Positions 10,101 through 64,000 of a DNA stretch of 64,000 nucleotides are shown here, one piece after another. The notes under the pieces are model-generated. The model searched no databases. It worked only from the letters and a program-made list of their open reading frames with translations, and was not told where the DNA came from. The first letter of the stretch is position 1. The number at the start of each line of letters is the position of its first letter. The stretch lies in the NCBI GenBank assembly GCA_009914755.4, contig CP086569.2:29760001-29824000 (forward strand), given 5' to 3'. The position numbers and the translations under genes are program-made. The stretch is from the human T2T-CHM13v2.0 reference genome, Homo sapiens.

Positions 10101-10690
10101 GGAATGGAAAGTGTTGAGATAGAATGCAATGGACTCCTTCGGAATGGTCTAGTATGCAATGCAATCGACTGGCAGGGAATCAAAAGGAATGTAATCGAAT
10201 GGATTGGACTGGAATGCAATGGACTCGAATAGATTGGAAACGGAATGCAAAGGAATGGAATGGAATAGTATGGAATGGAATGGAAAGGAATGGAGTGGAA
10301 TAGACTAGAGTGGAATGGAATGGACTGGAAAGCAATGGACTGGAATGGAACTTTCTTGAATGGACTGGAATCAAACGGAATGGAATGCAATGCAATCAAA
10401 TGGCATGGAATAAAATAGAATGAAAGAGAATCAAATGGAATTGAATCGAATGGAATCGAATGGATTGGAAAGGAATAGAATGGAATGGAATGGAATTGAC
10501 TCAAATGGAATGGACTAGAATGGAATGGATTCGAATGGAAGGCAAAGGAATGGAATCTATTGGAATGGACTGTAATGGAATGGAATGGAAGGGATTGGAA
10601 TGGACTCGAATGGAATGGACTGCAATAGAAAGGATTCGAATGGAATGAAAAAGAATTGAATGGAATAGAACAGAATGGAATCAAATCGAA
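7134..10690 (+). repeat. HOR unit 3 (3557 bp)
   Basis: Anchor motif at 7134 and 10691. Confidence 0.9.
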
Positions 10691-13600: not shown

Positions 13601-14229
13601 GAATTAAATGGACTGGAATGGAATGGACTCGAACAGAGTGGAATGGAAAGTGTTGAGATAGAATGGAATGGACTCCTTTGGAATGGTGTAGTATGCAATG
13701 CAATAGACTGGCAGGGAATCAAAAGGAATGTAATCGAATGGATTGCACTGGAATGCAATGGACTCGAATAGATTGGAAACGGAATGCAAAGGAATGGAAT
13801 GGAATAGTATGGAATGGAATGGAAAGGAATGGAGTGGAATAGACTAGAGTGGAAAGGAATGGACTGGAAAGCAATGGACTGGAATGGAACTTTCTTGAAT
13901 GGACTGGAATCAAACGGAATGGAATGCAATGCAATCAAATGGCATGGAATAAAATAGAATGAAAGAGAATCAAATGGAATTGAATCGAATGGAATCGAAT
14001 GGATTGGAAAGGAATAGAATGGAATGGAATGGAATTGACTCAAATGGAATGGACTAGAATGGAATGGATTCGAATGGAAGGCAAAGGAATGGAATCTATT
14101 GGAATGGACTGTAATGGAATGGAATGGAAGGGATTGGAATGGACTCGAATGGAATGGACTGCAATAGAAAGGATTCGAATGGAATGAAAAAGAATTGAAT
14201 GGAATAGAACAGAATGGAATCAAATCGAA
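10691..14229 (+). repeat. HOR unit 4 (3539 bp). It carries a 10-bp deletion near 10955–10960, fewer GGAAT copies near 13561–13600, and a G>T change at 12211 that destroys the unit's HaeIII site.
   Basis: Anchor motif at 10691 and 14230. Fused ORF 10656..11132 arises from the 10-bp deletion. At 12205–12216 the sequence reads ggacagtcctgg instead of ggacaggcctgg. Confidence 0.9.
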
Positions 14230-42717: not shown

Positions 42718-45700
42718 TGAAATGGAATGGAATAGAAAGGAATGGAATGAAATGGAATGGAAAGGATTCGAATGGAATACAATCGAATGGAATGGAATCG
42801 AACGGAATGGAATAAAATGGAAGAAAAGTGGCAAGAAATGGAATCGAAATGAATGGAGTGTTATGGAACGGACTCAAAAGGAATTGAATGTAATAGAATG
42901 GAGTGGAGTGCACTCGAATATAATGGACTGGAATGGAATGAAATCACATGGAATGGGAACGAATGGAATGGAATGGAAAGGAATGGAATCGAATGGAAAG
43001 GAATCGAATGGAAGGGAATGAAATTGAATCAACAGGAATGGAAGGGAATAGAATAGACGGTAATGGAATGGACTCGAATAGAATGGACACGAATGCTCAA
43101 ATTGAATGGACTCGAATGGAATGGAAACGAAAGGAATGTCATCGAATGGAATTGAATCGATTGGAATGAAATCGCATAGAATGGAGTGGAATCAAATGGA
43201 ATTGAATCGAAAGGAAAGGAAGCAAATGGACTGAAATGAAATGGAATGGAATTGAATGGAAAGTAATGCAATGGAATAGAATGGAACGAAATTTCACGGA
43301 ATGGAATCAAACTGAATGGAATCAAATCAATGGAATCAAATCAAATGGAATGGAAAGGAATTGAATGGAGTAGATGGGATTGGATGGGATTGGAATGAAA
43401 TGTACTGGAAAGGACTCGAATTTCATGAAACGGAATGGAATGAATTGGAACGGAATGGACTCGAATGGAATGGAATGTCATGGAATGGCATCAAATGGAA
43501 TGGCATCAAATGGAATGGAATCGAATGCAATGGAATGCTATGGAATGGAATGGAATGCATTGGAATGGAATGTCCTCTAATGGAATGGATTCGAGTGGAA
43601 TGGAATCGAATATAATGGAGACGAATGAAATGGAATTGAAAGGAATGGGATCGAATACAATGGAATATACTGGAATGTAATGTAATGAACTCGAATGTAA
43701 TTGACTGGAATGGAATGTACATGAATGGAATGTAATCGAATGGAAAGTAATCCAATGGAATAGAATCTAATGCAATAAAATCGACTCAGATAGAGTAGAA
43801 TGTAATGGAATGGAGTGCAGTGCAATGGAATGGAATGGAATGGAATGGAATGGAATGGAATGGAACGGGATGGAATGGGATGGAATGGTATGGAATGGAT
43901 AGTAATGGACTGGAATGAAATGGACTGGAAAGGAATGGACTCAAATTGAAAGGGCTCGAAAGCAATGGAGTCAAATGGAATGGTCTGGAATGGAATGAAC
44001 ACGAATGTAATGCAATCCAATAGAATGGAATCGAATGGCATGGAATATAAAGAAATGGAATCGAAGAGAATGGAAACAAATGGAATGGAATTGAATGGAA
44101 TGGAATTGAATGGAATGGGAACGAATGGAGTGAAATTGTATGCAGTAGAAGGGAATAGAATGGAATGCAAGCGAAAGGAAAGGAATGGATTGGAATGGAA
44201 TGGAATTCATTGGAATGGAAGGGAATGTAGTGTAATGGACAGGCCTGGAATAAAGTGGAATGCTACGGTCTCGAATGGAATAAAAATGTATGGAATGGAA
44301 TGCAATGAAACGGAATCGAATGTCATAGAATGTAATGGAATGCAAAAAAACGGAATCCAAAATCATTGACTGGAAAGGCTGGGTGTTGAAAGGAATTGAC
44401 TCCAATGGAATGGAATCGAATGGAATGGAAGTGAATAGAATCGAACTAAATCGAATGGAATGGAATTGATAGGAACGGAATGGAAAGGAATGCAATGATT
44501 TGGCATGGAATGGAATCGAATGGCATCGAATGGAATGGAATGGAATGCAATGGAATGGAATGTATTAGAATGTAATGAACTTTAATGGAATGTACTCGAA
44601 TGGATTCGACTGGAATGGAATGTTCTGGAAGTGAATGGACTCCAATGGAATGGATTCAAAAGGAATGGAATCGTACGGAATGGAATCTAATGGAATGGAA
44701 TTAAATGGAAATGAATCAAATTGAATAGCACGGAATTGAATTGAATGGAATGGAATGCAATGGAATCTAATGAAACGGAAAGGAAAGGAATGGAATGGAA
44801 TGGAATGGGCTGGAATGGAAAGGAATCGAAACGAATGGAATGGAATCGAACTGAAGAGACTGGAATGGAATGCACTGGAATGGAAGGGAGTGTAATGGAG
44901 GTTCTCGAAAAAAATGGAATCGAATGGAATGCAATTGAATGGAACGGAATAGAGTCGAATGGAATTGAATGGAATGGAATGGACTAGAGTGAAATGGAAT
45001 CGAACCACAAGGAATGGACAGGAATAGAATGGTCTCGAATTGAATGGAATCGTATGGAATGGCATCAAACGGAATGGAATGGACAGCCACGGAATGGAAT
45101 GCACTCGAATGCAATGGAGTCGAAACTAACGGACTGGAATAGAATGGACTCGACTGGTACGGACTCCAATGGAATGGAATCGAATGGAAGGGAATCGAAC
45201 GGAAGGGAATCGAACGGAATGGACTCGAAGGGAAAAGACTGCAATGGAAAGGTCTCGAATGGAATGGAAATTAATGGAATGGAATGGAATCGAATGAAAT
45301 GGAGTCGAAAGGAATGGAATCGAATGGCAAGAAATCGAATGTAATGGAATCGCAAGGAATTGATGTGAACGGAACGGAATGGAATGGAATCCAAAGGAAT
45401 GGAATAGAATGGAATGGAATCGAATGGAAAGGACTCAAATGGAAATCACTCGAATAGAATGCAATTTAATAAAATAGGATCAAATGTAATGGAATGGAAT
45501 GGAAAGGAATCAAAACGAAAGGAATGGAGACAGATGGAATGGAATGGAACAGAGAGCAATGGTATAGAATGGAATGGAATCATCTAGAATGGAATTGAAT
45601 GGAATGGAATAATATGAAATGGAATGGAATGGAATGGAATGGAATGGAATGGAATGCCCTTGAATTAAATGGACTGGAATGGAATGGACTCGAAGAGAGT

Positions 45701-46290
45701 GGAATGGAAAGTGTTGAGATAGAATGGAATGGACTCCTTTGGAATGGTGTAGTATGCAATGCAATCGACTGGCAGGGAATCAAAAGGAATGTAATCGAAT
45801 GGATTGGACTGGAATGCGATGGACTCGAATAGATTGGAAACGGAATGCAAAGGAATGGAATGGAATAGTATGGAATGGAATGGAAAGGAATGGAGTGGAA
45901 TAGACTAGAGTGGAATGGAATGGACTGGAAAGCAATGGACTGGAATGGAACTTTCTTGAATGGACTGGAATCAAACGGAATGGAATGCAATGCAATCAAA
46001 TGGCATGGAATAAAATAGAATGAAAGAGAATCAAATGGAATTGAATCGAATGGAATCGAATGGATTGGAAAGGAATAGAATGGAATGGAATGGAATTGAC
46101 TCAAATGGAATGGACTAGAATGGAATGGATTCGAATGGAAGGCAAAGGAATGGAATCTATTGGAATGGACTGTAATGGAATGGAATGGAAGGGATTGGAA
46201 TGGACTCGAATGGAATGGACTGCAATAGAAAGGATTCGAATGGAATGAAAAAGAATTGAATGGAATAGAACAGAATGGAATCAAATCGAA
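42718..46290 (+). repeat. HOR unit 13 (3573 bp); member of the unit 13/14/17 sub-family (15-bp tandem duplication, taacggactgg variant)
   Basis: Anchor motif at 42718 and 46291; the duplication ggaagggaatcgaac x2 lies at 45186–45215. Confidence 0.9.
45186..45215 (+). repeat. 15-bp tandem duplication (ggaagggaatcgaac x2), specific to units 13, 14 and 17; the other copies are at 48760–48789 and 59467–59496
   Basis: The artefactual ORF is lengthened from 111 to 116 aa (NGRESNGRESNGMDSKG) in exactly these three units. Confidence 0.85.
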
Positions 46291-49200
46291 TGAAATGGAA
46301 TGGAATAGAAAGGAATGGAATGAAATGGAATGGAAAGGATTCGAATGGAATGCAATCGAATGGAATGGAATCGAACGGAATGGAATAAAATGGAAGAAAA
46401 CTGGCAAGAAATGGAATCGAAATGAATGGAGTGTTATGGAACGGACTCAAAAGGAATTGAATGTAATAGAATGGAGTGGAGTGGACTCGAATATAATGGA
46501 CTGGAATGGAATGAAATCACATGGAATGGGAACGAATGGAATGGAATGGAAAGGAATGGAATCGAATGGAAAGGAATCGAATGGAAGGGAATGAAATTGA
46601 ATCAACAGGAATGGAAGGGAATAGAATAGACGGTAATGGAATGGACTCGAATAGAATGGACACGAATGCTCAAATTGAATGGACTCGAATGGAATGGAAA
46701 CGAAAGGAATGTCATCGAATGGAATTGAATCGATTGGAATGAAATCGCATAGAATGGAGTGGAATCAAATGGAATTGAATCGAAAGGAAAGGAAGCGAAT
46801 GGACTGAAATGAAATGGAATGGAATTGAATGGAAAGTAATGCAATGGAATAGAATGGAACGAAATTTCACGGAATGGAATCAAACTGAATGGAATCAAAT
46901 CAATGGAATCAAATCAAATGGAATGGAAAGGAATTGAATGGAGTAGATTGGATTGGATGGGATTGGAATGAAATGTACTGGAAAGGACTCGAATTTCATG
47001 AAACGGAATGGAATGAATTGGAACGGAATGGACTCGAATGGAATGGAATGTCATGGAATGGCATCAAATGGAATGGCATCAAATGGAATGGAATCGAATG
47101 CAATGGAATGCTATGGAATGGAATGGAATGCATTGGAATGGAATGTCCTCTAATGGAATGGATTCGAGTGGAATGGAATCGAATATAATGGAGTCGAATG
47201 AAATGGAATTGAAAGGAATGGGATCGAATACAATGGAATATACTGGAATGTAATGTAATGAACTCGAATGTAATTGACTGGAATGGAATGTACATGAATG
47301 GAATGTAATCGAATGGAAAGTAATCCAATGGAATAGAATGTAATGCAATAAAATCGACTCAGATAGAGTAGAATGTAATGGAATGGAGTGCAGTGCAATG
47401 GAATGGAATGGAATGGAATGGAATGGAATGGAATGGAATGGGATGGAATGGGATGGAATGGTATGGAATGGATAGTAATGGACTGGAATGAAATGGACTG
47501 GAAAGGAATGGACTCAAATTGAAAGGGCTCGAAAGCAATGGAGTCAAATGGAATGGTCTGGAATGGAATGAACACGAATGTAATGCAATCCAATAGAATG
47601 GAATCGAATGGCATGGAATATAAAGAAATGGAATCGAAGAGAATGGAAACAAATGGAATGGAATTGAATGGAATGGAATTGAATGGAATGGGAACGAATG
47701 GAGTGAAATTGTATGCAGTAGAAGGGAATAGAATGGAATGCAAGCGAAAGGAAAGGAATGGATTGGAATGGAATGGAATTCATTGGAATGGAAGGGAATG
47801 TAGTGTAATGGACAGGCCTGGAATAAAGTGGAATGCTACGGTCTCGAATGGAATAAAAATGTATGGAATGGAATGCAATGAAACGGAATCGAATGTCATA
47901 GAATGTAATGGAATGCAAAAAAACGGAATCCAAAATCATTGACTGGAAAGGCTGGGTGTTGAAAGGAATTGACTCCAATGGAATGGAATCGAATGGAATG
48001 GAAGTGAATAGAATCGAACTAAATCGAATGGAATGGAATTGATAGGAACGGAATGGAAAGGAATGCAATGATTTGGCATGGAATGGAATCGAATGGCATC
48101 GAATGGAATGGAATGGAATGCAATGGAATGGAATGTATTAGAATGTAATGAACTTTAATGGAATGTACTCGAATGGATTCGACTGGAATGGAATGTTCTG
48201 GAAGTGAATGGACTCCAATGGAATGGATTCAAAAGGAATGGAATCGTACGGAATGGAATCTAATGGAATGGAATTAAATGGAAATGAATCAAATTGAATA
48301 GCACGGAATTGAATTGAATGGAATGGAATGCAATGGAATCTAATGAAACGGAAAGGAAAGGAATGGAATGGAATGGAATGGGCTGGAATGGAAAGGAATC
48401 GAAACGAATGGAATGGAATCGAACTGAAGAGACTGGAATGCAATGCACTGGAATGGAAGGGAGTGTAATGGAAGGTTCTCGAAAAAAATGGAATCGAATG
48501 GAATGCAATTGAATGGAACGGAATAGAGTCGAATGGAATTGAATGGAATGGAATGGACTAGAGTGAAATGGAATCGAACCACAAGGAATGGACAGGAATA
48601 GAATGGTCTCGAATTGAATGGAATCGTATGGAATGGCATCAAACGGAATGGAATGGACAGCCACGGAATGGAATGCACTCGAATGCAATGGAGTCGAAAC
48701 TAACGGACTGGAATAGAATGGACTCGACTGGTACGGACTCCAATGGAATGGAATCGAATGGAAGGGAATCGAACGGAAGGGAATCGAACGGAATGGACTC
48801 GAAGGGAAAAGACTGCAATGGAAAGGTCTCGAATGGAATGGAAATTAATGGAATGGAATGGAATCGAATGAAATGGAGTCAAAAGGAATGGAATCGAATG
48901 GCAAGAAATCGAATGTAATGGAATCGCAAGGAATTGATGTGAACGGAACGGAATGGAATGGAATCCAAAGGAATGGAATAGAATGGAATGGAATCGAATG
49001 GAAAGGACTCAAATGGAAATCACTCGAATAGAATGCAATTTAATAAAATAGGATCAAATGTAATGGAATGGAATGGAAAGGAATCAAAACGAAAGGAATG
49101 GAGACAGATGGAATGGAATGGAACAGAGAGCAATGGTATAGAATGGAATGGAATCATCTAGAATGGAATTGAATGGAATGGAATAATATGAAATGGAATG

Positions 49201-49859
49201 GAATGGAATGGAATGGAATGGAATGCCCTTGAATTAAATGGACTGGAATGGAATGGACTCGAAGAGAGTGGAATGGAAAGTGTTGAGATAGAATGGAATG
49301 GACTCCTTTGGAATGGTGTAGTATGCAATGCAATCGACTGGCAGGGAATCAAAAGGAATGTAATCGAATGGATTGGACTGGAATGCGATGGACTCGAATA
49401 GATTGGAAACGGAATGCAAAGGAATGGAATGGAATAGTATGGAATGGAATGGAAAGGAATGGAGTGGAATAGACTAGAGTGGAATGGAATGGACTGGAAA
49501 GCAATGGACTGGAGTGGAACTTTCTTGAATGGACTGGAATCAAACGGAATGGAATGCAATGCAATCAAATGGCATGGAATAAAATAGAATGAAAGAGAAT
49601 CAAATGGAATTGAATCGAATGGAATCGAATGGATTGGAAAGGAATAGAATGGAATGGAATGGAATTGACTCAAATGGAATGGACTAGAATGGAATGGATT
49701 CGAATGGAAGGCAAAGGAATGGAATCTATTGGAATGGACTGTAATGGAATGGAATGGAAGGGATTGGAATGGACTCGAATGGAATGGACTGCAATAGAAA
49801 GGATTCGAATGGAATGAAAAAGAATTGAATGGAATAGAACAGAATGGAATCAAATCGAA
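46291..49859 (+). repeat. HOR unit 14 (3569 bp); unit 13/14/17 sub-family
   Basis: Anchor motif at 46291 and 49860; the 15-bp duplication lies at 48760–48789. Confidence 0.9.
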
Positions 49860-52800
49860 TGAAATGGAATGGAATAGAAAGGAATGGAATGAAATGGAAT
49901 GGAAAGGATTCGAATGGAATGCAATCGAATGGAATGGAATCGAACGGAATGGAATAAAATGGAAGAAAACTGGCAAGAAATGGAATCGAAATGAATGGAG
50001 TGTTATGGAACGGACTCAAAAGGAATTGAATGTAATAGAATGGAGTGGAGTGGACTCGAATATAATGGACTGGAATGGAATGAAATCACATGGAATGGGA
50101 ACGAATGGAATGGAATGGAAAGGAATGGAATCGAATAGAAAGGAATCGAATGGAAGGGAATGAAATTGAATCAACAGGAATGGAAGGGAATAGAATAGAC
50201 GGTAATGGAATGGACTCGAATAGAATGGACACGAATGCTCAAATTGAATGGACTCGAATGGAATGGAAACGAAAGGAATGTCATCGAATGGAATTGAATC
50301 GATTGGAATGAAGTCGCATAGAATGGAGTGGAATCAAATGGAATTGAATCGAAAAGAAAGGAAGCAAATGGACTGAAATGAAATGGAATGGAATTGAATG
50401 GAAAGTAATGCAATGGAATAGAATGGAACGAAATTTCACGGAATGGAATCAAACTGAATGGAATCAAATCAATGGAATCAAATCAAATGGAATGGAAAGG
50501 AATTGAATGGAGTAGATTGGATTGGATGGGATTGGAATGAAATGTACTGGAAAGGACTCGAATTTCATGAAACGGAATGGAATGAATTGGAACGGAATGG
50601 ACTCGAATGGAATGGAATGTCATGGAATGGCATCAAATGGAATGGCATCAAATGGAATGGAATCGAATGCAATGGAATGCTATGGAATGGAATGGAATGC
50701 ATTGGAATGGAATGTCCTCTAATGGAATGGATTCGAGTGGAATGGAATCGAATATAATGGAGTCGAATGAAATGGAATTGAAAGGAATGGGATCGAATAC
50801 AATGGAATATACTGGAATGTAATGTAATGAACTCGAATGTAATTGACTGGAATGGAATGTACATGAATGGAATGTAATCGAATGGAAAGTAATCCAATGG
50901 AATAGAATCTAATGCAATAAAATCGACTCAGATAGAGTAGAATGTAATGGAATGGAGTGCAGTGCAATGGAATGGAATGGAATGGAATGCAATGGAATGG
51001 AATGGAATGGAATGGAATGGAATGGGATGGAATGGGATGGAATGGTATGGAATGGATAGTAATGGACTGGAGTGAAATGGACTGGAAAGGAATGGACTCA
51101 AATTGAAAGGGCTCGAAAGGAATGGAGTCAAATGGAATGGTCTGGAATGGAATGAACACGAATGTAATGCAATCCAATAGAATGGAATCGAATGGCATGG
51201 AATATAAAGAAATGGAATCGAAGAGAATGGAAACAAATGGAATGGAATTGAATGGAATGGAATTGAATGGAATGGGAACGAATGGAGTGAAATTGTATGC
51301 AGTAGAAGGGAATAGAATGGAATGCAAGCGAAAGGAAAGGAATGGATTGGAATGGAATGGAATTCATTGGAATGGAAGGGAATGTAGTGTAATGGACAGG
51401 CCTGGAATAAAGTGGAATGCTACGGTCTCGAATGGAATAAAAATGTATGGAATGGAATGCAATGAAACGGAATCGAATGTCATAGAATGTAATGGAATGC
51501 AAAAAAATGGAATCCAAAATCATTGACTGGAAAGGCTGGGTGTCGAAAGGAATTGACTCCAATGGAATGGAATTGAATGGAATGGAAGTGAATAGAATCG
51601 AACTAAATCGAATGGAATGGAATTGATAGGAACGGAATGGAAAGGAATGCAATGATTTGGCATGGAATGGAATCGAATGGCATCGAATGGAATGGAATGC
51701 AATGCAATGGAATGGAATGTATTAGAATGTAATGAACTTTAATGGAATGTACTCGAATGGATTCGACTGGAATGGAATGTTCTGGAAGTGAATGGACTCC
51801 AATGGAATGGATTCAAAAGGAATGGAATCGTACGGAATGGAATCTAATGGAATGGAATTAAATGGAAATGAATCAAATTGAATAGCACGGAATTGAATGG
51901 AATGGAATGGAATGCAATGGAATCTAATGATACGGAAAGGAAAGGAATGGAATGGAATGGAATGGGCTGGAATGGAAAGGAATCGAAACGAATGGAATGG
52001 AATCGAACTGAAGAGACTGGAATGGAATGCACTGGAATGGAAGGGAGTGTAATGGAAGGTTCTCGAAAAAAATGGAATCGAATGGAATGGAATGGAATGG
52101 AACGGAATAGAGTCGAATGGAATTGAATGGAATGGAATGGACTAGAGTGAAATGGAATCGAACCACAAGGAATGGACAGGAATAGAATGGTCTCGAATTG
52201 AATGGAATCGTATGGAATGGCATCAAACGGAATGGAATGGACAGCCACGGAATGGAATGCACTCGAATGCAATGGAGTCGAAACTAATGGACTGGAATAG
52301 AATGGACTCGACTGGTACGGACTCCAATGGAATGGAATCGAATGGAAGGGAATCGAACGGAATGGACTCGAAGGGAAAAGACTGCAATGGAAAGGTCTCG
52401 AATGGAATGGAAATTAATGGAATGGAATGGAATCGAATGAAATGGAGGCAAAAGGAATGGAATCGAATGGCAAGAAATCGAATGTAATGGAATCGCAAGG
52501 AATTGATGTGAACGGAACGGAATGGAATGGAATCCAAAGGAATGGAATAGAATGGAATGGAATCGAATGGAAAGGACTCAAATGGAAATCACTCGAATAG
52601 AATGCAATTTAATAAAATAGGATCAAATGTAATGGAATGGAATGGAAAGGAATCGAAACGAAAGGAATGGAGACAGATGGAATGGAATGGAACAGAGAGC
52701 AATGGTATAGAATGGAATGGAATCATCTAGAATGGAATTGAATGGAATGGAATAATATGAAATGGAATGGAATGGAATGGAATGGAATGGAATGGAATGC

Positions 52801-53433
52801 CCTTGAATTAAATGGACTGGAATGGAATGGACTCGAAGAGAGTGGAATGGAAAGTGTTGAGATAGAATGGAATGGACTCCTTTGGAATGGTGTAGTATGC
52901 AATGCAATCGACTGGCAGGGAATCAAAAGGAATGTAATCGAATGGATTGGACTGGAATGCGATGGACTCGAATAGATTGGAAACGGAATGCAAAGGAATG
53001 GAATGGAATAGTATGGAATGGAATGGAAAGGAATGGAGTGGAATAGACTAGAGTGGAATGGAATGGACTGGAAAGCAATGGACTGGAATGGAACTTTCTT
53101 GAATGGACTGGAATCAAACGGAATGGAATGCAATGCAATCAAATGGCATGGAATAAAATAGAATGAAAGAGAATCAAATGGAATTGAATCGAATGGAATC
53201 GAATGGATTGGAAAGGAATAGAATGGAATGGAATGGAATTGACTCAAATGGAATGGACTAGAATGGAATGGATTCGAATGGAAGGCAAATGAATGGAATC
53301 TATTGGAATGGACTGTAATGGAATGGAATGGAAGGGATTGGAATGGACTCGAATGGAATGGACTGCAATAGAAAGGATTGGAATGGAATGAAAAAGAATT
53401 GAATGGAATAGAACAGAATGGAATCAAATCGAA
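49860..53433 (+). repeat. HOR unit 15 (3574 bp)
   Basis: Anchor motif at 49860 and 53434. Confidence 0.9.
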
Positions 53434-56400
53434 TGAAATGGAATGGAATAGAAAGGAATGGAATGAAATGGAATGGAAAGGATTCGAATGGAATGCAATC
53501 GAATGGAATGGAATCGAACGGAATGGAATAAAATGGAAGAAAACTGGCAAGAAATGGAATCGAAATGAATAGAGTGTTATGGAACGGACTCAAAAGGAAT
53601 TGAATGTAATAGAATGGAGTGGAGTGGACTCGAATATAATGGACTGGAATGGAATGAAATCACATGGAATGGGAACGAATGGAATGGAATGGAAAGGAAT
53701 GGAATCGAATGGAAAGGAATCGAATGGAAGGGAATGAAATTGAATCAACAGGAATGGAAGGGAATAGAATAGACGGTAATGGAATGGACTCGAATAGAAT
53801 GGACACGAATGCTCAAATTGAATGGACTCGAATGGAATGGAAACGAAAGGAATGTCATCGAATGGAATTGAATCGATTGGAATGAAATCGCATAGAATGG
53901 AGTGGAATCAAATGGAATTGAATCGAAAGGAAAGGAAGCGAATGGACTGAAATGAAATGGAATGGAATTGAATGGAAAGTAATGCAATGGAATAGAATGG
54001 AACGAAATTTCACGGAATGGAATCAAACTGAATGGAATCAAATCAATGGAATCAAATCAAATGGAATGGAAAGGAATTGAATGGAGTAGATTGGATTGGA
54101 TGGGATTGGAATGAAATGTACTGGAAAGGACTCGAATTTCATAAAACGGAATGGAATGAATTGGAACGGAATGGACTCGAATGGAATGGAATGTCATGGA
54201 ATGGCATCAAATGGAATGGCATCAAATGGAATGGAATCGAATGCAATGGAATGCTATGGAATGGAATGGAATGCATTGGAATGGAATGTCCTCTAATGGA
54301 ATGGATTCGAGTGGAATGGAATCGAATATAATGGAGTCGAATGAAATGGAATTGAAAGGAATGGGATCGAATACAATGGAATATACTGGAATGTAATGTA
54401 ATGAACTCGAATGTAATTGACTGGAATGGAATGTACATGAATGGAATGTAATCGAATGGAAAGTAATCCAATGGAATAGAATCTAATGCAATAAAATCGA
54501 CTCAGATAGAGTAGAATGTAATGGAATGGAGTGCAGTGCAATGGAATGGAATGGAATGGAATGCAATGGAATGGAATGGAATGGAATGGAATGGAATGGA
54601 ATGGGATGGAATGGGATGGAATGGTATGGAATGGATAGTAATGGACTGGAGTGAAATGGACTGGAAAGGAATGGACTCAAATTGAAAGGGCTCGAAAGCA
54701 ATGGAGTCAAATGGAATGGTCTGGAATGGAATGAACACGAATGTAATGCAATCCGATAGAATGGAATCGAATGGCATGGAATATAAAGAAATGGAATCGA
54801 AGAGAATGGAAACAAATGGAATGGAATTGAATGGAATGGAATTGAATGGAATGGGAACGAATGGAGTGAAATTGTATGCAGTAGAAGGGAATAGAATGGA
54901 ATGCAAGCGAAAGGAAAGGAATGGATTGGAATGGAATGGAATTCATTGGAATGGAAGGGAATGTAGTGTAATGGACAGGCCTGGAATAAAGTGGAATGCT
55001 ACGGTCTCGAATGGAATAAAAATGTATGGAATGGAATGCAATGAAACGGAATCGAATGTCATAGAATGTAATGGAATGCAAAAAAATGGAATCCAAAATC
55101 ATTGACTGGAAAGGCTGGGTGTCGAAAGGAATTGACCCCAATGGAATGGAATCGAATGGAATGGAAGTGAATAGAATCGAACTAAATCGAATGGAATGGA
55201 ATTGATAGGAACGGAATGGAAAGGAATGCAATGATTTGGCATGGAATGGAATCGAATGGCATCGAATGGAATGGAATGGAATGCAATGGAATGGAATGTA
55301 TTAGAATGTAATGAACTTTAATGGAATGTACTCGAATGGATTCGACTGGAATGGAATGTTCTGGAAGTGAATGGACTCCAATGGAATGGATTCCAAAGGA
55401 ATGGAATCGTACGGAATGGAATCTAATGGAATGGAATTAAATGGAAATGAATCAAATTGAATAGCACGGAATTGAATTGAATGGAATGGAATGCAATGGA
55501 ATCTAATGAAACGGAAAGGAAAGGAATGGAATGGAATGGAATGGGCTGGAATGGAAAGGAATCGAAACGAATGGAATGGAATCGAACTGAAGAGACTGGA
55601 ATGGAATGCACTGGAATGGAAGGGAGTGTAATGGAAGGTTCTCGAAAAAAATGGAATCGAATGGAATGGAATTGAATGGAACGGAATAGAGTCGAATGGA
55701 ATTGAATGGAATGGAATGGACTAGAGTGAAATGGAATCGAACCAAAAGGAATGGACAGGAATAGAATGGTCTCGAATTGAATGGAATCGTATGGAATGGC
55801 ATCAAACGGAATGGAATGGACAGCCACGGAATGGAATGCACTCGAATGCAATGGAGTCGAAACTAATGGACTGGAATAGAATGGACTCGACTGGTACGGA
55901 CTCCAATGGAATGGAATCGAATGGAAGGGAATCGAACGGAATGGACTCGAAGGGAAAAGACTGCAATGGAAAGGTCTCGAATGGAATGGAAATTAATGGA
56001 ATGGAATGGAATCGAATGAAATGGAGTCAAAAGGAATGGAATCGAATGGCAAGAAATCGAATGTAATGGAATCGCAAGGAATTGATGTGAACGGAACGGA
56101 ATGGAATGGAATCCAAAGGAATGGAATAGAATGGAATGGAATCGAATGGAAAGGACTCAAATGGAAATCACTCGAATAGAATGCAATTTAATAAAATAGG
56201 ATCAAATGTAATGGAATGGAATGGAAAGGAATCGAAACGAAAGGAATGGAGACAGATGGAATGGAATGGAACAGAGAGCAATGGTATAGAATGGAATGGA
56301 ATCATCTAGAATGGAATTGAATGGAATGGAATAATATGAAATGGAATGGAATGGAATGGAATGCCCTTGAATTAAATGGACTGGAATGGAATGGACTCGA

Positions 56401-56997
56401 AGAGAGTGGAATGGAAAGTGTTGAGATAGAATGGAATGGACTCCTTTGGAATGGTGTAGTATGCAATGCAATCGACTGGCAGGGAATCAAAAGGAATGTA
56501 ATCGAATGGATTGGACTGGAATGCGATGGACTCGAATAGTTTGGAAACGGAATGCAAAGGAATGGAATGGAATAGTATGGAATGGAATGGAAAGGAATGG
56601 AGTGGAATAGACTAGAGTGGAATGGAATGGACTGGAAAGCAATGGACTGGAATGGAACTTTCTTGAATGGACTGGAATCAAACGGAATGGAATGCAATGC
56701 AATCAAATGGCATGGAATAAAATAGAATGAAAGAGAATCAAATGGAATTGAATCGAATGGAATCGAATGGATTGGAAAGGAATAGAATGGAATGGAATGG
56801 AATTGACTCAAATGGAATGGACTAGAATGGAATGGATTCGAATGGAAGGCAAAGGAATGGAATCTATTGGAATGGACTGTAATGGAATGGAATGGAAGGG
56901 ATTGGAATGGACTCGAATGGAATGGACTGCAATAGAAAGGATTCGAATGGAATGAAAAAGAATTGAATGGAATAGAACAGAATGGAATCAAATCGAA
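53434..56997 (+). repeat. HOR unit 16 (3564 bp)
   Basis: Anchor motif at 53434 and 56998. Confidence 0.9.
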
Positions 56998-59900
56998 TGA
57001 AATGGAATGGAATAGAAAGGAATGGAATGAAATGAAATGGAAAGGATTCGAATGGAATGCAATCGAATGGAATGGAATCGAAAGGAATGGAATAAAATGG
57101 AAGAAAACTGGCAAGAAATGGAATCGAAATGAATGGAGTGTTATGGAACGGACTCAAAATGAATTGAATGTAATAGAATGGAGTGGAGTGGACTCGAATA
57201 TAATGGACTGGAATGGAATGAAATCACATGGAATGGGAACGAATGGAATGGAATGGAAAGGAATGGAATCGAATGGAAAGGAATCGAATGGAAGGGAATG
57301 AAATTGAATCAACAGGAATGGAAGGGAATAGAATAGACGGTAATGGAATGGACTCGAATAGAATGGACACGAATGCTCAAATTGAATGGACTCGAATGGA
57401 ATGGAAACGAAAGGAATGTCATCGAATGGAATTGAATCGATTGGAATGAAATCGCATAGAATGGAGTGGAATCAAATGGAATTGAATCGAAAGGAAAGGA
57501 AGCGAATGGACTGAAATGAAATGGAATGGAATTGAATGGAAAGTAATGCAATGGAATAGAATGGAACGAAATTTCACGGAATGGAATCAAACTGAATGGA
57601 ATCAAATCAATGGAATCAAATCAAATGGAATGGAAAGGAATTGAATGGAGTAGATGGGATTGGATGGGATTGGAATGAAATGTACTGGAAAGGACTCGAA
57701 TTTCATGAAACGGAATGGAATGAATTGGAACGGAATGGACTCGAATGGAATGGAATGTCATGGAATGGCATCAAATGGAATGGCATCAAATGGAATGGAA
57801 TCGAATGCAATGGAAAGCTATGGAATGGAATGGAATGCATTGGAATGGAATGTCCTCTAATGGAATGGATTTGAGTGGAATGGAATCGAATATAATGGAG
57901 TCGAATGAAATGGAATTGAAAGGAATGGGATCGAATACAATGGAATATACTGGAATGTAATGTAATGAACTCGAATGTAATTGACTGGAATGGAATGTAC
58001 ATGAATGGAATGTAATCGAATGGAAAGTAATCCAATGGAATAGAATCTAATGCAATAAAATCGACTCAGATAGAGTAGAATGTAATGGAATGGAGTGCAG
58101 TGCAATGGAATGGAATGGAATGGAATGGAATGGAATGGAATGGAATGGGATGGAATGGGATGGAATGGTATGGAATGGATAGTAATGGACTGGAATGAAA
58201 TGGACTGGAAAGGAATGGACTCAAATTGAAAGGGCTCGAAAGCAATGGAGTCAAATGGAATGGTCTGGAATGGAATGAACACGAATGTAATGCAATCCAA
58301 TAGAATGGAATCGAATGGCATGGAATATAAAGAAATGGAATCGAAGAGAATGGAAACAAATGGAATGGAATTGAATGGAATGGAATTGAATGGAATGGGA
58401 ACGAATGGAGTGAAATTGTATGCAGTAGAAGGGAATAGAATGGAATGCAAGCGAAAGGAAAGGAATGGATTGGAATGGAATGGAATTCATTGGAATGGAA
58501 GGGAATGTAGTGTAATGGACAGGCCTGGAATAAAGTGGAATGCTACGGTCTCGAATGGAATAAAAATGTATGGAATGGAATGCAATGAAACGGAATCGAA
58601 TGTCATAGAATGTAATGGAATGCAAAAAAACGGAATCCAAAATCATTGACTGGAAAGGCTGGGTGTTGAAAGGAATTGACTCCAATGGAATGGAATCGAA
58701 TGGAATGGAAGTGAATAGAATCGAACTAAATCGAATGAAATGGAATTGATAGGAACGGAATGGAAAGGAATGCAATGATTTGGCATGGAATGGAATCGAA
58801 TGGCATCGAATGGAATGGAATGGAATGCAATGGAATGGAATGTATTAGAATGTAATGAACTTTAATGGAATGTACTCGAATGTATTCGACTGGAATGGAA
58901 TGTTCTGGAAGTGAATGGACTCCAATGGAATGGATTCAAAAGGAATGGAATCGTACGGAATGGAATCTAATGGAATGGAATTAAATGGAAATGAATCAAA
59001 TTGAATAGCACGGAATTGAATTGAATGGAATGGAATGCAATGGAATCTAATGAAACGGAAAGGAAAGGAATGGAATGGAATGGAATGGGCTGGAATGGAA
59101 AGGAATCGAAACGAATGGAATGGAATCGAACTGAAGAGACTGGAATGGAATGCACTGGAATGGAAGGGAGTGTAATGGAAGGTTCTCGAAAAAAATGGAA
59201 TCGAATGGAATGGAATTGAATGGAACGGAATAGAGTCGAATGGAATTGAATGGAATGGAATGGACTAGAGTGAAATGGAATCGAACCACAAGGAATGGAC
59301 AGGAATAGAATGGTCTCGAATTGAATGGAATCGTATGGAATGGCATCAAACGGAATGGAATGGACAGCCACGGAATGGAATGCACTCGAATGCAATGGAG
59401 TCGAAACTAACGGACTGGAATAGAATGGACTCGACTGGTACGGACTCCAATGGAATGGAATCGAATGGAAGGGAATCGAACGGAAGGGAATCGAACGGAA
59501 TGGACTCGAAGGGAAAAGACTGCAATGGAAAGGTCTCGAATGGAATGGAAATTAATGGAATGGAATGGAATCGAATGAAATGGAGTCAAAAGGAATGGAA
59601 TCGAATGGCAAGAAATCGAATGTAATGGAATCGCAAGGAATTGATGTGAACGGAACGGAATGGAATGGAATCCAAAGTAATGGAATAGAATGGAATGGAA
59701 TCGAATGGAAAGGACTCAAATGGAAATCACTCGAATAGAATGCAATTTAATAAAATAGGATCAAATGTAATGGAATGGAATGGAAAGGAATCGAAACGAA
59801 AGGAATGGAGACAGATGGAATGGAATGGAACAGAGAGCAATGGTATAGAATGGAATGGAATCATCTAGAATGGAATTGAATGGAATGGAATAATATGAAA

Positions 59901-60566
59901 TGGAATGGAATGGAATGGAATGGAATGGAATGCCCTTGAATTAAATGGACTGGAAACGAATGGACTCGAAGAGAGTGGAATGGAAAGTGTTGAGATAGAA
60001 TGGAATGGACTCCTTTGGAATGGTGTAGTATGCAATTCAATCGACTGGCAGGGAATCAAAAGGAATGTAATCGAATGGATTGTACTGGAATGCGATGGAC
60101 TCGAATAGATTGGAAACGGAATGCAAAGGAATGGAATGGAATAGTATGGAATGGAATGGAAAGGAATGGAGTGGAATAGACTAGAGTGGAATGGAATGGA
60201 CTGGAACGCAATGGACTGGAATGGAACTTTCTTGAATGGACTGGAATCAAACGGAATGGAATGCAATGCAATCAAATGGCATGGAATAACATAGAATGAA
60301 AGAGAATCAAATGGAATTGAATCGAATGGAATCGAATGGATTGGAAAGGAATAGAATGGAATGGAATGGAATTGACTCAAATGGAGTGGACTAGAATGGA
60401 ATGGATTCGAATGGAAGGCAAAGGAATGGAATCTATTGGAATGGACTGTAATGGAATGGAATGGAAGGGATTGCAATGGACTCGAATGGAATGGACTGCA
60501 ATAGAAAGGATTCGAATGGAATGAAAAAGAATTGAATGGAATAGAACAGAATGGAATCAAATCGAA
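56998..60566 (+). repeat. HOR unit 17 (3569 bp); unit 13/14/17 sub-family
   Basis: Anchor motif at 56998 and 60567; the 15-bp duplication lies at 59467–59496. Confidence 0.9.
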
Positions 60567-62970
60567 TGAAATGGAATGGAATAGAAAGGAATGGAATGAA
60601 ATGGAATGGAAAGGATTCGAATGGAATGCAATCGAATGGAATGGAATCGAACGGAATGGAATAAAATGGAAGAAAACTGGCAAGAAATGGAATCGAAAGG
60701 AATGGAGTGTTATGGAACGGACTCAAAAGGAATTGAATGTAATAGAATGGAGTGGAGTGGACTCGAATATAATGGACTGGAATGGAATGAAATCACATGG
60801 AATGGGAACGAATGGAATGGAATGGAAAGGAATGGAATCGAATGGAAAGGAATCGAATGGAAGGGAATGAAATTGAATCAACAGGAATGGAAGGGAATAG
60901 AATAGACGGTAATGGAATGGACTCGAATAGAATGGACACGAATGCTCAAATTGAATGGACTCGAATGGAATGGAAACGAAAGGAATGTCATCGAATGGAA
61001 TTGAATCGATTGGAATGAAATCGCATAGAATGGAGTGGAATCAAATGGAATTGAATCGAAAGGAAAGGAAGCAAATGGACTGAAATGAAATGGAATGGAA
61101 TTGAATGGAAAGTAATGCAATGGAATAGAATGGAACGAAATTTCACGGAATGGAATCAAACTGAATGGAATCAAATCAATGGAATCAAATCAAATGGAAT
61201 GGAAAGGAATTGAATGGAGTAGATTGGATTGGATGGGATTGGAATGAAATGTACTGGAAAGGACTCGAATTTCATGAAACGGAATGGAATGAATTGGAAC
61301 GGAATGGACTCGAATGGATTCGACTGGAATGGAATGTTCTGGAAGTGAATGGACTCCAATGGAATGGATTCAAAAGGAATGGAATCGTACGGAATGGAAT
61401 CTAATGGAATGGAATTAAATGGAAATGAATCAAATTGAATAGCACGGAATTGAATTGAATGGAATGGAATGCAATGGAATCTAATGAAACGGAAAGGAAA
61501 GGAATGGAATGGAATGGAATGGGCTGGAATGGAAAGGAATCGAAACGAATGGAATGGAATCGAACTGAAGAGACTGGAATGGAATGCACTGGAATGGAAG
61601 GGAGTGTAATGGAAGGTTCTCGAAAAAAATGGAATCGAATGGAATGGAATTGAATGGAACGGAATAGAGTCGAATGGAATTGAATGGAATGGAATGGACT
61701 AGAGTGAAATGGAATCGAACCACAAGGAATGGACAGGAATAGAATGGTCTCGAATTGAATGGAATCGTATGGAATGGCATCAAACGGAATGGAATGGACA
61801 GCCACAGAATGGAATGCACTCGAATGCAATGGAGTCGAAACTAATGGACTGGAATAGAATGGACTCGACTGGTACGGACTCCAATGGAATGGAATCGAAT
61901 GGAAGGGAATCGAACGGAATGGACTCGAAGGGAAAAGACTGCAATGGAAAGGTCTCGAATGGAATGGAAATAAATGGAATGGAATGGAATCGAATGCAAT
62001 GGAGTCAAAAGGAATGGAATCGAATGGCAAGAAATCGAATGTAATGGAATCGCAAGGAATTGATGTGAACGGAACGGAATGGAATGGAATCCAAAGGAAT
62101 GGAATAGAATGGAATGGAATCGAATGGAAAGGACTCGAATGGAAATCACTCGAATAGAATGCAATTTAATAAAATAGGATCAAATGTAATGGAATGGAAT
62201 GGAAAGGAATCGAAACGAAAGGAATGGAGACAGATGGAATGGAATGGAACAGAGAGCAATGGTATAGAATGGAATGGAATCATCTGGAATGGAATTGAAT
62301 GGAATGGAATAATATGAAATGGAATGGAATGGAATGGAATGGAATGCCCTTGAATTAAATGGACTGGACTCGAACAGAGTGGAATGGAAAGTGTTGAGAT
62401 AGAATGGAATGGACTCCTTTGGAATGGTCTAGTATGCAATGCAATCGACTGGCAGGGAATCAAAAGGAATGTAATGGAATGGATTAGACTGGAATGCAAT
62501 GGACTCGAATAGATTGGAAACGGAATGCAAAGGAATGGAATGGAATAGTATGGAATGCAATGGAAGGGAATGGAGTGGAATAGACTAGAGTGGAATGGAA
62601 TGGACTGGAAAGCAATGGACTGGAATGGAAATTTCTTGGATGGACTGTAATCAAACGGAATGGAATGCAATGCAATCAAATGGCATGGAATAAAATAGAA
62701 TGAAAGAGAATCAAATGGAATTGAATCGAATGTAATCGAATGGATTGGAAAGGAATAGAATGGAATGGAATGGAATTGACTCAAATGGAATGGACTAGAA
62801 TGGAATGGATTCGAATGGAAGGCAAAGGAATGGAATCTATTGGAATGGACTGTAATGGAATGGAATGGAAGGGATTGGAATGGACTCGAATGGAATGGAC
62901 TGCAATAGAAAGGATTCGAATGGAATGAAAAAGAATTGAATGGAATAGAACAGAATGGAATCAAATCGAA
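60567..62970 (+). repeat. HOR unit 18, truncated to 2404 bp by an internal ~1.1–1.2-kb deletion (junction at ~61309–61320), plus smaller deletions (e.g. 10 bp at ~62365)
   Basis: Anchor motif at 60567 and 62971. The sequence jumps from ...ggaacggaatggactcgaatgga straight to ttcgactggaatggaatgttctggaagtg. In full units these two segments are ~1135 bp apart (e.g. 57739 and 58874 in unit 17). Confidence 0.85.
61309..61320 (+). other. Deletion junction with 11–12 bp of microhomology (actcgaatgga[t]) that removed ~1.1–1.2 kb of unit 18
   Basis: The same motif actcgaatgga occurs at both the left and right breakpoints in intact units (e.g. 57739–57749 and 58874–58882 in unit 17). Confidence 0.75.
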
Positions 62971-64000
62971 TGAAATGGAATGGAATAGAAAGGAATGGAA
63001 TGAAATGGAATGGAAAGGATTCGAATGGAATGCAATCGAATGGAATGGAATCGAACGGAATGGAATAAAATGGAAGAAAACTGGCAAGAAATGGAATCGA
63101 AATGAATGGAGTGTTATGGAACGGAATCAAAAGGAATTGAATGTAATAGAATGGAGTGGAGTGGACTCGAATATAATGGACTGGAATGGAATGAAATCAC
63201 ATGGAATGGGAACGAATGGAATGGAATGGAAAGGAATGGAATCGAATGGAAAGGAATCGAATGGAAGGGAATGAAATTGAATCAACAGGAATGGAAGGGA
63301 ATAGAATAGACTGTAATGGAATGGACTCGGATAGAATGGACACGAATGCTCAAATTAAATGGACTCGAATGGAATGGAAACGAAAGGAATGTCATCGAAT
63401 GGAATTGAATCGATTGGAATGAAATCGCATAGAATGGAGTGGAATCAAATGGAATTGAATCGAAAGGAAAGGAAGCGAATGGACTGAAATGAAATGGAAT
63501 GGAATTGAATGGAAAGTAATTCAATGGAATAGAATGGAACGAAATTTCACGGAATGGAATCAAACTGAATGGAATCAAATCAATGGAATCAAATCAAATG
63601 GAATGGAAAGGAATTGAATGGAGTAGATTGGATTGGATGGGATTGGAATGAAATGTACTGGAAAGGACTCGAATTTCATGAAAAGGAATGGAATGAATTG
63701 GAACGGAATGGACTCGAATGGAATGGAATGTCATGGGATGGCATCAAAGGGAATGGCATCAAATGGAAGGGAATCGAATGCAATGGAATGCTATGGAATG
63801 GAATGGAAAGCATTGGAATGGAATGTCCTCTAATGGAATGGATTCGAGTGGAATGGAATTGAATATAATGGAGTCGAATGAAATGGAATTGAAAGGAATG
63901 GGATCGAATACAATGGAATATACTGGAATGTAACGTAATGAACTCGAATGTAATTGACTGGAATGGAATGTACATGAATGGAATGTAATCGAATGGAAAG
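62971..64000 (+). repeat. HOR unit 19, partial (first ~1030 bp; the window ends inside the unit)
   Basis: Anchor motif at 62971; the ORF set matches the start of the other units. Confidence 0.9.

What the first reader, a model, noticed from the sequence alone, without database searches (positions are those of the whole stretch)
42718..60566. Locally homogenised variant block in units 13–17, with a sub-family of units 13/14/17 carrying a 15-bp tandem duplication
- **Block-wide changes (units 13–17):** all share ggactcAaatggaaatcactc (45431, 49011, 52571, 56158, 59711) versus ggactcGaatgg in units 1–12 (a CpG to CpA change). All also share catctAgaatgg versus catctGgaatgg (45581, 49151, 52725, 56301, 59865).
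- **Unit 13/14/17 sub-family:** within the block these three units additionally share:
  - the 15-bp duplication ggaagggaatcgaac x2 (45186–45215, 48760–48789, 59467–59496);
  - cgaaactaaCggactgg (45121 / 48701 / 59401);
  - SIPFNTQPF / LDSVFLHS-type changes (ORFs 43971..44495, 47544..48068, 58251..58775);
  - the 197-aa artefact ORF.
- **Units 15 and 16:** they lack these sub-family changes.
- **Interpretation:** this shows stepwise homogenisation (gene conversion / unequal exchange) acting on blocks of a few HOR copies. The CpG>CpA change is the expected signature of deamination at a methylated CpG that was subsequently spread through the block.
Basis: seen in the sequence. Interest (0 to 1): 0.5.

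Follow-up and report, generated by a model that had tools for sequence, protein, structure and literature searches.

The report
Local variant block in Y-satellite DYZ1
Five neighbouring copies of a 3.57-kb human Y-chromosome-type satellite repeat (DYZ1/HSat3) share a few private mutations, three of them a few more; this is the ordinary footprint of repeat copies being duplicated and patched from each other, not a new feature.

Summary
The window is a DYZ1/HSat3-type array: 17 full units of about 3.57 kb, one truncated unit and one partial unit. A full alignment shows two substitutions exclusive to units 13–17, at 45437 and 45586 in unit 13. Two more cover units 13–17 plus unit 11 or unit 12. 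Units 13/14/17 also share five substitutions and the 15-bp duplication. Neighbour-joining (NJ) bootstrap is 89% for {13–17}, 99% for {13,14,17} and 81% for {13,14}.

- "Homogenised" overstates it: divergence is 0.65% within the block and 0.95% to units 1–12. Other clades in the window are tighter, e.g. units 8 and 10 differ at 5 sites.
- All four block-wide markers lie within 382 bp of the unit. Four-gamete failures and a PHI-type test (p ≤ 0.004) show a mosaic history rather than a clean tree.
- The 15-bp duplication is not private. Two independent contaminant contigs carry it with none of the block markers, and one of them lacks the marker 56 bp upstream of the duplication.
- Only one of the four block markers is a CpG transition. 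CpG transitions are 2.8-fold enriched overall.

Unequal exchange and intra-array gene conversion in Yq12 are already documented. Low interest.

The parts
42718..60566 (+). Units 13–17 of the 3.57-kb higher-order repeat. Unit limits are 42718–46290, 46291–49859, 49860–53433, 53434–56997 and 56998–60566. This is the variant block.
   Evidence: Anchor k-mer spacing, segmentation, NJ bootstrap 893/1000.
45437..45437 (+). Block-wide G>A at alignment column 2768 (a CpG>CpA change within ggactcGaatgg). Homologous sites are 49011, 52580, 56159 and 59718. Exclusive to units 13–17.
   Evidence: External contigs: 48/48 have G. Metagenome scans found 0 contigs with A and 47 stretches with G.
45586..45586 (+). 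Block-wide G>A at column 2917 (catctGgaatgg; not a CpG). Homologous sites are 49160, 52729, 56308 and 59867. Exclusive to units 13–17. It creates a TAG stop on the minus strand that truncates the artefact ORF from 318 aa to 270–275 aa.
   Evidence: External contigs: 49/49 have G.
45695..45695 (+). C>G at column 3026 in units 13–17 (also 49264, 52838, 56402, 59971) and in unit 11 (38568).
   Evidence: Four-gamete incompatible with column 3149.
45818..45818 (+). A>G at column 3149 in units 13–17 (also 49387, 52961, 56525, 60094) and in unit 12 (42245).
45186..45215 (+). 15-bp tandem duplication (GGAAGGGAATCGAAC x2) in unit 13. The same duplication lies at 48760–48789 (unit 14) and 59467–59496 (unit 17). 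It adds one copy to a pre-existing imperfect 15-bp (three-pentamer) sub-repeat.
   Evidence: The same duplication is found in L001 and L017 on a non-block background.
43848..45130 (+). The five substitutions shared only by units 13/14/17. In unit 13 they are at 43848 (C>G), 43915 (G>A), 44351 (T>C), 44387 (C>T, at a CpG) and 45130 (T>C). In unit 14 they are at 47421, 47488, 47924, 47960 and 48704. In unit 17 they are at 58128, 58195, 58631, 58667 and 59411.
   Evidence: NJ bootstrap 990/1000.
44932..45512 (+). Two substitutions shared only by units 13 and 14: 44932 and 48506 (G>C); 45512 and 49086 (G>A, at a CpG).
   Evidence: NJ bootstrap 814/1000.
60567..62970 (+). Truncated unit 18 (2,404 bp), immediately 3' of the block. 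Alignment columns 754–1933 are deleted between two copies of ACTCGAATGG, with the junction at 61317/61318. The 3' part of this unit has consensus alleles at all block markers, so the block ends here.

Best explanation
The region is non-coding DYZ1-type satellite: HSat3, a roughly 3.57-kb higher-order unit built from GGAAT pentamers. Units 13–17 are a small local lineage of repeat copies produced by neutral array turnover.

The inferred sequence of events is as follows.
1. A progenitor unit acquired a few point mutations, one of them a CpG transition. Unequal sister-chromatid exchange then amplified it in tandem.
2. One descendant lineage carried the 15-bp copy-number variant, which already existed elsewhere among DYZ1 units or arose again here. 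That lineage picked up five more substitutions and gave rise to units 13, 14 and 17. Units 13 and 14 are the most recent duplicates.
3. The interleaved order (13, 14 | 15, 16 | 17) and the mosaic of marker tracts need at least one further event. This could be a multi-unit exchange, an out-of-register exchange or a sub-unit gene-conversion event.

Shown: the nesting, the contiguity, the mosaicism, and the occurrence of the duplication outside the block. Inferred: the order of events and the relative weight of crossover versus conversion. No function is implied, and the ORFs are artefacts of (CATTC)3 = HSIPF periodicity.
For: Identity of the repeat:
- Unit lengths are 3,539–3,579 bp, and five units are exactly 3,569 bp.
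- The pentamer consensus is AATGG.
- There is one HaeIII site per unit.
- GC is 38.8% with 101 CpG per 3,554 bp, about 1 per 35 bp. This matches the published DYZ1 description (10.1101/2022.12.01.518658).

Nested clades:
- Bootstrap is 89%, 99% and 81% for {13–17}, {13,14,17} and {13,14}.
- All marker alleles are derived relative to external DYZ1 contigs.
- Private-substitution load is lowest in units 13 and 14 (1.7 and 0.8 per kb) and higher in unit 17 (4.5 per kb), so the 13/14 duplication is the youngest.

The same kind of structure occurs elsewhere in the window:
- units 3 and 4 form a pair;
- units 6/8/10 alternate with units 7/9/11, a 2-unit exchange register.

Reticulation:
- There are 98 four-gamete-incompatible marker pairs out of 946.
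- A PHI-type test gives p = 0.0002–0.004.
- The four block markers lie within 382 bp (p about 0.005).

Duplication outside the block:
- The duplication occurs in L001 and L017 with ancestral alleles at columns 2768, 2917, 3026 and 3149.
- L001 also has the ancestral allele at column 2461.

Literature:
- Yq12 evolves by unequal exchange, with frequent sister-chromatid exchange (10.1101/2022.12.01.518724).
- 6 of 35 de novo Yq12 events in father–son pairs fit intra-array gene conversion (10.64898/2026.06.03.729890).
Against: - Within-block similarity is only marginally higher than between blocks (0.65% versus 0.95%). The clade rests on very few sites, two of them exclusive.
- Units 15 and 16 share no exclusive variant, so their position in the history is unresolved.
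- No identical tracts longer than about 1.5 kb exist. No single recent event can therefore be pinpointed.
- The external contigs are short-read assemblies of contaminant DNA. They may be chimeric between DYZ1 copies, so linkage beyond about 150 bp in them is uncertain.
- Chromosomal origin (Yq12) and methylation were not testable.
Confidence: 0.8

Rival explanations
1. Pure gene-conversion homogenisation. The five units already existed, and short non-reciprocal conversion tracts copied the variants from unit to unit without any change in copy number.
For: - All four block-wide markers lie within 382 bp, and the sub-family markers lie in a separate 1.38-kb stretch.
- There are four-gamete failures at column 661, at column 1293, and between columns 3026 and 3149.
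- The PHI-type test is significant.
- Pedigree data show gene conversion in Yq12.
Against: - Whole-unit distances also group 13/14/17 and 13/14.
- The window shows clear 2-unit-register duplications in units 6–11, which conversion alone does not produce.
- Unit lengths and pentamer copy numbers co-vary with the clades.
- Conversion and crossover cannot be separated from a single haplotype.
Confidence: 0.3
2. Sorting of old, array-wide DYZ1 polymorphisms. The variants are ancient alleles present in many DYZ1 units across Yq12, and their co-occurrence in units 13–17 reflects ancestry from another array region rather than in-situ mutation and spread.
For: - The 15-bp duplication occurs in two unrelated external contigs, and column 661 G occurs in two others, L006 and L028.
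- Markers 3026G and 3149G also occur singly in units 11 and 12.
Against: - The two exclusive block markers are absent from every external DYZ1 contig that covers them: 0 of 48 and 0 of 49.
- Sub-family markers 1245, 1681 and 1717 are absent from all 22–25 external contigs that cover them.
- Those contigs are consensus-like collapses, however, and would miss alleles at low frequency.
Confidence: 0.2
3. Assembly or sequencing artefact, such as mis-polishing or collapse of a repeat.
For: - The transition/transversion ratio of all variant events is unusually low at 82:110.
- Private-substitution density is uneven between units.
Against: - Errors do not generate nested sets of 2–6 linked variants repeated at homologous positions in 3–5 units.
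- The duplication is seen independently in other data sets.
Confidence: 0.03

Closest known systems
DYZ1 (HSat3A6) arrays of human Yq12
   Same: - About 3.57-kb unit with a 3,569-bp length class.
- GGAAT/CATTC pentamer base.
- One HaeIII and one EcoRI site per unit.
- 38.8% GC and 1 CpG per 35 bp.
- More than 98% identity between units.
- 97–99.9% identity to many of the DYZ1-like contaminant contigs from metagenomes, some labelled human gut (range over all contigs 87–99.9%).
   Different: Nothing found that differs. Chromosomal position and alternation with DYZ2 could not be checked, because the window contains only the DYZ1-type repeat.
Local homogenisation and layered expansion of satellite arrays (alpha-satellite HOR haplotypes, DYZ19 'rounds of mutation/expansion', the mid-array similarity of DYZ1/DYZ2 described by Hallast et al.)
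   Same: - Neighbouring units share private variants and form nested clades.
- Similarity decays with physical distance (Mantel r = 0.44).
- Units with few private changes lie in the middle of the window (units 8–14), and more diverged units lie at its edges.
   Different: The scale here is tiny: 5 units, 18 kb and 2–4 markers. The published examples span hundreds of kb. The homogenisation is weak (0.65% versus 0.95%).
Intra-array gene conversion in Yq12 (father–son de novo events; 10.64898/2026.06.03.729890)
   Same: Marker tracts at sub-unit scale have discordant genealogies, as shown by four-gamete failures and the PHI-type test.
   Different: Here conversion is inferred from a single haplotype. 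It is not observed across a transmission, and it cannot be separated from hybrid units made by unequal crossover.

Membership tests
DYZ1 / HSat3A6 satellite | Higher-order unit of about 3.56–3.57 kb (modal 3,569 bp) in head-to-tail array | tested here: met
   17 full units of 3,539–3,579 bp; units 2, 5, 6, 14 and 17 are 3,569 bp.
DYZ1 / HSat3A6 satellite | Derived from the pentamer GGAAT/CATTC | tested here: met
   TRF finds one array over 4–63998 with consensus AATGGAATGGAATGG.
DYZ1 / HSat3A6 satellite | One HaeIII (GGCC) site per unit, giving the classical 3.56-kb fragment | tested here: met
   16 GGCC sites spaced 3,540–3,589 bp; absent only in unit 4 and truncated unit 18.
DYZ1 / HSat3A6 satellite | About 38% GC and about 1 CpG per 35 bp (Hallast et al.) | tested here: met
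   The consensus has 38.8% GC and 101 CpG in 3,554 bp; published values quoted.
DYZ1 / HSat3A6 satellite | Located in Yq12, alternating with DYZ2 (HSat1B) arrays | not testable with these tools
   No human genome is in the searchable collections, and the window holds no DYZ2.
DYZ1 / HSat3A6 satellite | High identity to an independent DYZ1 reference sequence | tested here: inconclusive
   No published consensus was available. Contaminant contigs from human-associated metagenomes match the window consensus at up to 99.9%, which is a proxy only.
Locally amplified or homogenised sub-family block | Members are monophyletic and physically contiguous | tested here: met
   {13–17} has bootstrap 893/1000 and is contiguous. 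{13,14,17} has 990/1000 but is interrupted by units 15/16.
Locally amplified or homogenised sub-family block | Within-block divergence clearly below between-block divergence | tested here: inconclusive
   0.65% within the block, 0.95% between blocks and 0.85% within units 1–12. The direction is right but the effect is small.
Locally amplified or homogenised sub-family block | Defining variants are private to the block | tested here: not met
   This holds for columns 2768 and 2917. Column 3026 is also derived in unit 11 and column 3149 in unit 12. The 15-bp duplication is also present in external contigs L001 and L017 without the block markers.
Methyl-CpG deamination signature | Transition at a CpG dinucleotide | tested here: met
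   Column 2768 is TCGAA>TCAAA. The same applies to columns 1717 and 2843. The other three block markers are not CpG transitions.
Methyl-CpG deamination signature | CpG transitions over-represented among array variants | tested here: met
   12 events at 202 CpG positions versus 70 at 3,352 others: a 2.8-fold excess, Fisher p = 0.002.
Methyl-CpG deamination signature | The site is methylated in the germ line | not testable with these tools
   Literature only: DYZ1 is reported as constitutively hypermethylated.

The most novel reading that the evidence does not exclude
The block-wide markers lie in a 382-bp stretch. The sub-family markers lie in a separate 1.4-kb stretch. B-type alleles reappear at isolated sites. 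Together these could be a direct record of short-tract (under 0.4–1.4 kb) gene conversion between neighbouring DYZ1 units. If so, tract lengths in Y heterochromatin could be read from single-haplotype data.
Probability: 0.3. Interest if true: 0.3.

Novelty: already known. Interest (0 to 1): 0.12.

Why it matters
It matters little on its own. It is a clean, small-scale example of how satellite arrays on the non-recombining Y turn over. Nested paralogous sequence variants such as these are useful as markers for validating assemblies. They can also help trace unequal exchange or conversion in Yq12 across Y haplogroups. The finding raises no new biological question.

Tried and rejected
1. Protein-database probe with the 174-aa artefact ORF carrying two sub-family markers. 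It gave only two partial hits. The collection holds almost no DYZ1 ORFs, so it gave no information on variant frequency.
2. Scans of viral contigs for the block marker (either allele) and for the duplication. Both gave 0 hits, so no DYZ1 is present there.
3. Metagenome scan for the derived block allele. It gave 0 hits, against 47 stretches with the ancestral allele. This is consistent with a rare, local allele. It is weak evidence, because those contigs are consensus-like collapses of thousands of copies.
4. Search for long identical tracts at lags of 1–4 units, to identify a single recent multi-unit duplication. The longest was about 1.5 kb, and none explains the 13,14|15,16|17 order.
5. Coding potential was rejected. 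The ORFs give only sub-threshold pentapeptide-type Pfam matches and translate the (CATTC)3 period.
6. Recurrent mutation as the sole cause of the shared variants was rejected. Most markers are non-CpG, several are transversions, and they are linked.
Full report
**What the window is.** The 64-kb window is one uninterrupted pentamer-derived satellite. Tandem Repeats Finder reports a single array over 4–63998 with consensus AATGGAATGGAATGG. Base composition is A 25,902, G 19,474, T 13,279 and C 5,345.

Anchor 24-mers recur every 3,539–3,579 bp.
- 17 full units, of which units 2, 5, 6, 14 and 17 are exactly 3,569 bp;
- a truncated unit 18 (60567–62970, 2,404 bp);
- a partial unit 19.

The consensus unit has 38.8% GC and 101 CpG in 3,554 bp, about 1 per 35 bp. 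Each unit has one HaeIII and one EcoRI site. These values match the published description of DYZ1/HSat3A6: about 3.5 kb, a modal 3,569-bp HaeIII fragment, 38% GC and 1 CpG per 35 bp (10.1101/2022.12.01.518658). Chromosomal location could not be tested. External contigs that are evidently human contamination in metagenomes match the window consensus at up to 99.9%.

**Checking the observation.** Every item is present.
- The string ggactcAaatggaaatcactc occurs five times, at 45431, 49005, 52574, 56153 and 59712.
- The string catctAgaatgg occurs five times, at 45581, 49155, 52724, 56303 and 59862.
- The 30-bp double 15-mer occurs at 45186, 48760 and 59467.
- The string cgaaactaaC occurs at 45121, 48695 and 59402.

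The ORF observations are exact.

The MAFFT alignment of all units (3,622 columns) gives the following patterns.
- Units 13–17 exclusively: columns 2768 and 2917.
- Units 13–17 plus unit 11: column 3026.
- Units 13–17 plus unit 12: column 3149.
- Units 13/14/17 exclusively: columns 1153, 1245, 1681, 1717 and 2461, and the 15-bp insertion.
- Units 13/14 exclusively: columns 2263 and 2843.
- Units 15/16: no exclusive variant.

**Is it more than chance?** Yes.
- NJ bootstrap (substitutions only) supports {13–17} at 893/1000, {13,14,17} at 990 and {13,14} at 814.
- A random 5-of-17 split is contiguous with probability 13/6188.
- Sequence distance correlates with physical distance (Mantel r = 0.44, p = 2e-4).
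- Derived alleles form fewer runs along the array than under permutation (p = 0.012).
- External DYZ1 contigs carry the majority allele at nearly every covered marker site, so the block and sub-family alleles are derived. The exceptions are one contig with C at column 2461 (L041, whose marker-to-15-mer spacing is anomalous) and two contigs with A or T at column 3026.

**How special is the block?** Not very.
- Mean pairwise substitution divergence is 0.65% within units 13–17, 0.85% within units 1–12 and 0.95% between the two groups.
- Other local clades in the window are as strong or stronger:
  - units 3 and 4 share 7 substitutions (bootstrap 1000);
  - units 8 and 10 differ at only 5 sites;
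  - units 6/8/10 alternate with units 7/9/11(/12), which indicates duplication in a 2-unit (7.1-kb) register.
- Private-substitution density is lowest in units 8–14 (0.3–1.7 per kb). It is higher in units 1, 5, 17, 18 and 19 (4.5–10.7 per kb).

**Mosaic structure.** All four block-wide markers lie in columns 2768–3149, which is 382 bp of a circular 3,554-bp unit (p about 0.005 for four random points). The six sub-family markers lie in columns 1153–2531.

Several marker pairs fail the four-gamete test.
- Column 661 G is shared by units 7/9/11/12 with units 13 and 17 only.
- Column 1293 C is shared by units 7/9/11/12 with units 13/14/16/17.
- Column 3026 (unit 11 plus the block) conflicts with column 3149 (unit 12 plus the block).

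A PHI-type permutation test shows that neighbouring informative sites are more compatible than distant ones (p = 0.0002–0.004 for the 17 units). The units are therefore recombinant mosaics.

No identical tract longer than about 1.5 kb exists at lags of 1–4 units. The events are therefore not very recent, and no single multi-unit duplication can be identified.

**The 15-bp duplication.** The local sequence GGAATCGAAT-GGAAG | GGAATCGAAC-GGAAT is already an imperfect 15-bp doublet. The "duplication" is a plus-one copy-number step of it.

A scan of 185,579 prokaryotic genomes found the same 30-mer in a 1,074-bp contaminant contig, L001 (CALPCJ010000057.1). A metagenome contig, L017, also has it. 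Both carry it in the identical context.

L001 has T rather than C at column 2461, 56 bp upstream of the duplication. L001 and L017 both have the ancestral alleles at columns 2768, 2843, 2917, 3026 and 3149.

Inside the window the duplication is perfectly linked to the sub-family markers. Outside it is not. It therefore either predates the block or arises recurrently by slippage. As a caveat, these are short-read contigs of a multi-copy contaminant, so linkage beyond read length is uncertain.

**CpG claim.** Column 2768 is indeed a CpG transition (TCGAA>TCAAA). Across the alignment there are 192 substitution events. Of these, 12 are CpG transitions, a 2.8-fold per-site excess over non-CpG transitions (Fisher p = 0.002).

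The other three block-wide markers are not CpG transitions. Among the 11 nested marker substitutions, three are (columns 2768, 1717 and 2843). The literature reports DYZ1 as hypermethylated, but methylation cannot be tested here. Overall transitions:transversions are 82:110, which is unusually transversion-rich and remains unexplained.

**Right-hand boundary.** The block ends at unit 18. That unit lacks alignment columns 754–1933, with the junction at 61317/61318 between two copies of ACTCGAATGG. Its 3' part has consensus alleles at every block marker. As an inference only, this junction could be the scar of a larger deletion that also removed further block-type units. That would help to explain the 13,14|15,16|17 order.

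**Mechanism.** The best-supported account is neutral satellite turnover. Point mutations arise in a progenitor unit. Tandem amplification by unequal sister-chromatid exchange follows, then further mutation and re-amplification in a sub-lineage. At least one out-of-register or multi-unit exchange, or a sub-unit gene conversion, then produces the mosaic.

This agrees with published conclusions for Yq12:
- unequal exchange, with sister-chromatid exchange seen in about 15% of Strand-seq libraries (10.1101/2022.12.01.518724);
- higher similarity between units in the middle of an array;
- 6 of 35 de novo Yq12 events consistent with intra-array gene conversion (10.64898/2026.06.03.729890).

The minus-strand ORFs are artefacts, since (CATTC)3 translates to HSIPF. 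They give only sub-threshold pentapeptide-like Pfam matches.

**Dead ends.**
- The protein-database probe with the artefact ORF gave nothing useful.
- The two viral-contig scans found nothing.
- The metagenome scan for the derived block allele found nothing. The ancestral allele gave 47 stretches.

**Verdict.** This is a known kind of feature in a known satellite, of low interest.

Noticed in passing
window 17799–42717 (units 6–12): Units 6/8/10 and units 7/9/11 alternate as two sub-types, so the array has a 2-unit (about 7.1-kb) super-repeat here. Unit 12 is a further copy of the second type. {6,8,10} share 5 substitutions and {7,9,11,12} share 3. Units 8 and 10 differ at only 5 sites. The 6/8/10 type carries an extra EcoRI site at 18499, 25622 and 32746.
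   Followed up: partly
window 7134–14229 (units 3–4): Units 3 and 4 form a tight pair with 7 exclusive shared substitutions (bootstrap 1000/1000). Unit 4 has lost the HaeIII site and has a 10-bp deletion at columns 271–280.
   Followed up: partly
window 60567–62970, junction 61317/61318: Unit 18 is only 2,404 bp. About 1.17 kb (alignment columns 754–1933) is deleted between two copies of the intra-unit direct repeat ACTCGAATGG. The deletion coincides with the 3' end of the variant block.
   Followed up: partly
window 62971–64000 (unit 19) and 1–3564 (unit 1): Private-substitution density rises towards the window edges: 10.7 per kb in unit 19 and 5.9 per kb in unit 1, against 0.3–1.7 per kb in units 8–14. 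This suggests a recently amplified core flanked by older copies.
   Followed up: no
whole window (alignment of 17 units): The substitution spectrum is transversion-rich (82 transitions versus 110 transversions), with many G>T and G>C changes. This is unusual for human germ-line variation and is not explained. It could reflect a satellite-specific mutation or repair bias, or residual assembly error.
   Followed up: no
L001 (CALPCJ010000057.1, Senimuribacter sp. DSM 106208 assembly) and L002–L048: A bacterial isolate assembly and 47 stretches from public metagenome contigs contain DYZ1-type satellite at up to 99.9% identity to the window consensus, which looks like human male DNA contamination in public assemblies. 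Many contigs are about 3.6 kb, the size expected if thousands of copies collapse into one unit.
   Followed up: partly
window 25750–25770 region (unit 8, alignment columns 826–845): Unit 8 alone has a 20-bp insertion of pentamers. Pentamer copy number also varies at columns 1154–1178 and 2949–2963, with states shared between non-sister units. These look like slippage-prone sites that are homoplasious.
   Followed up: no
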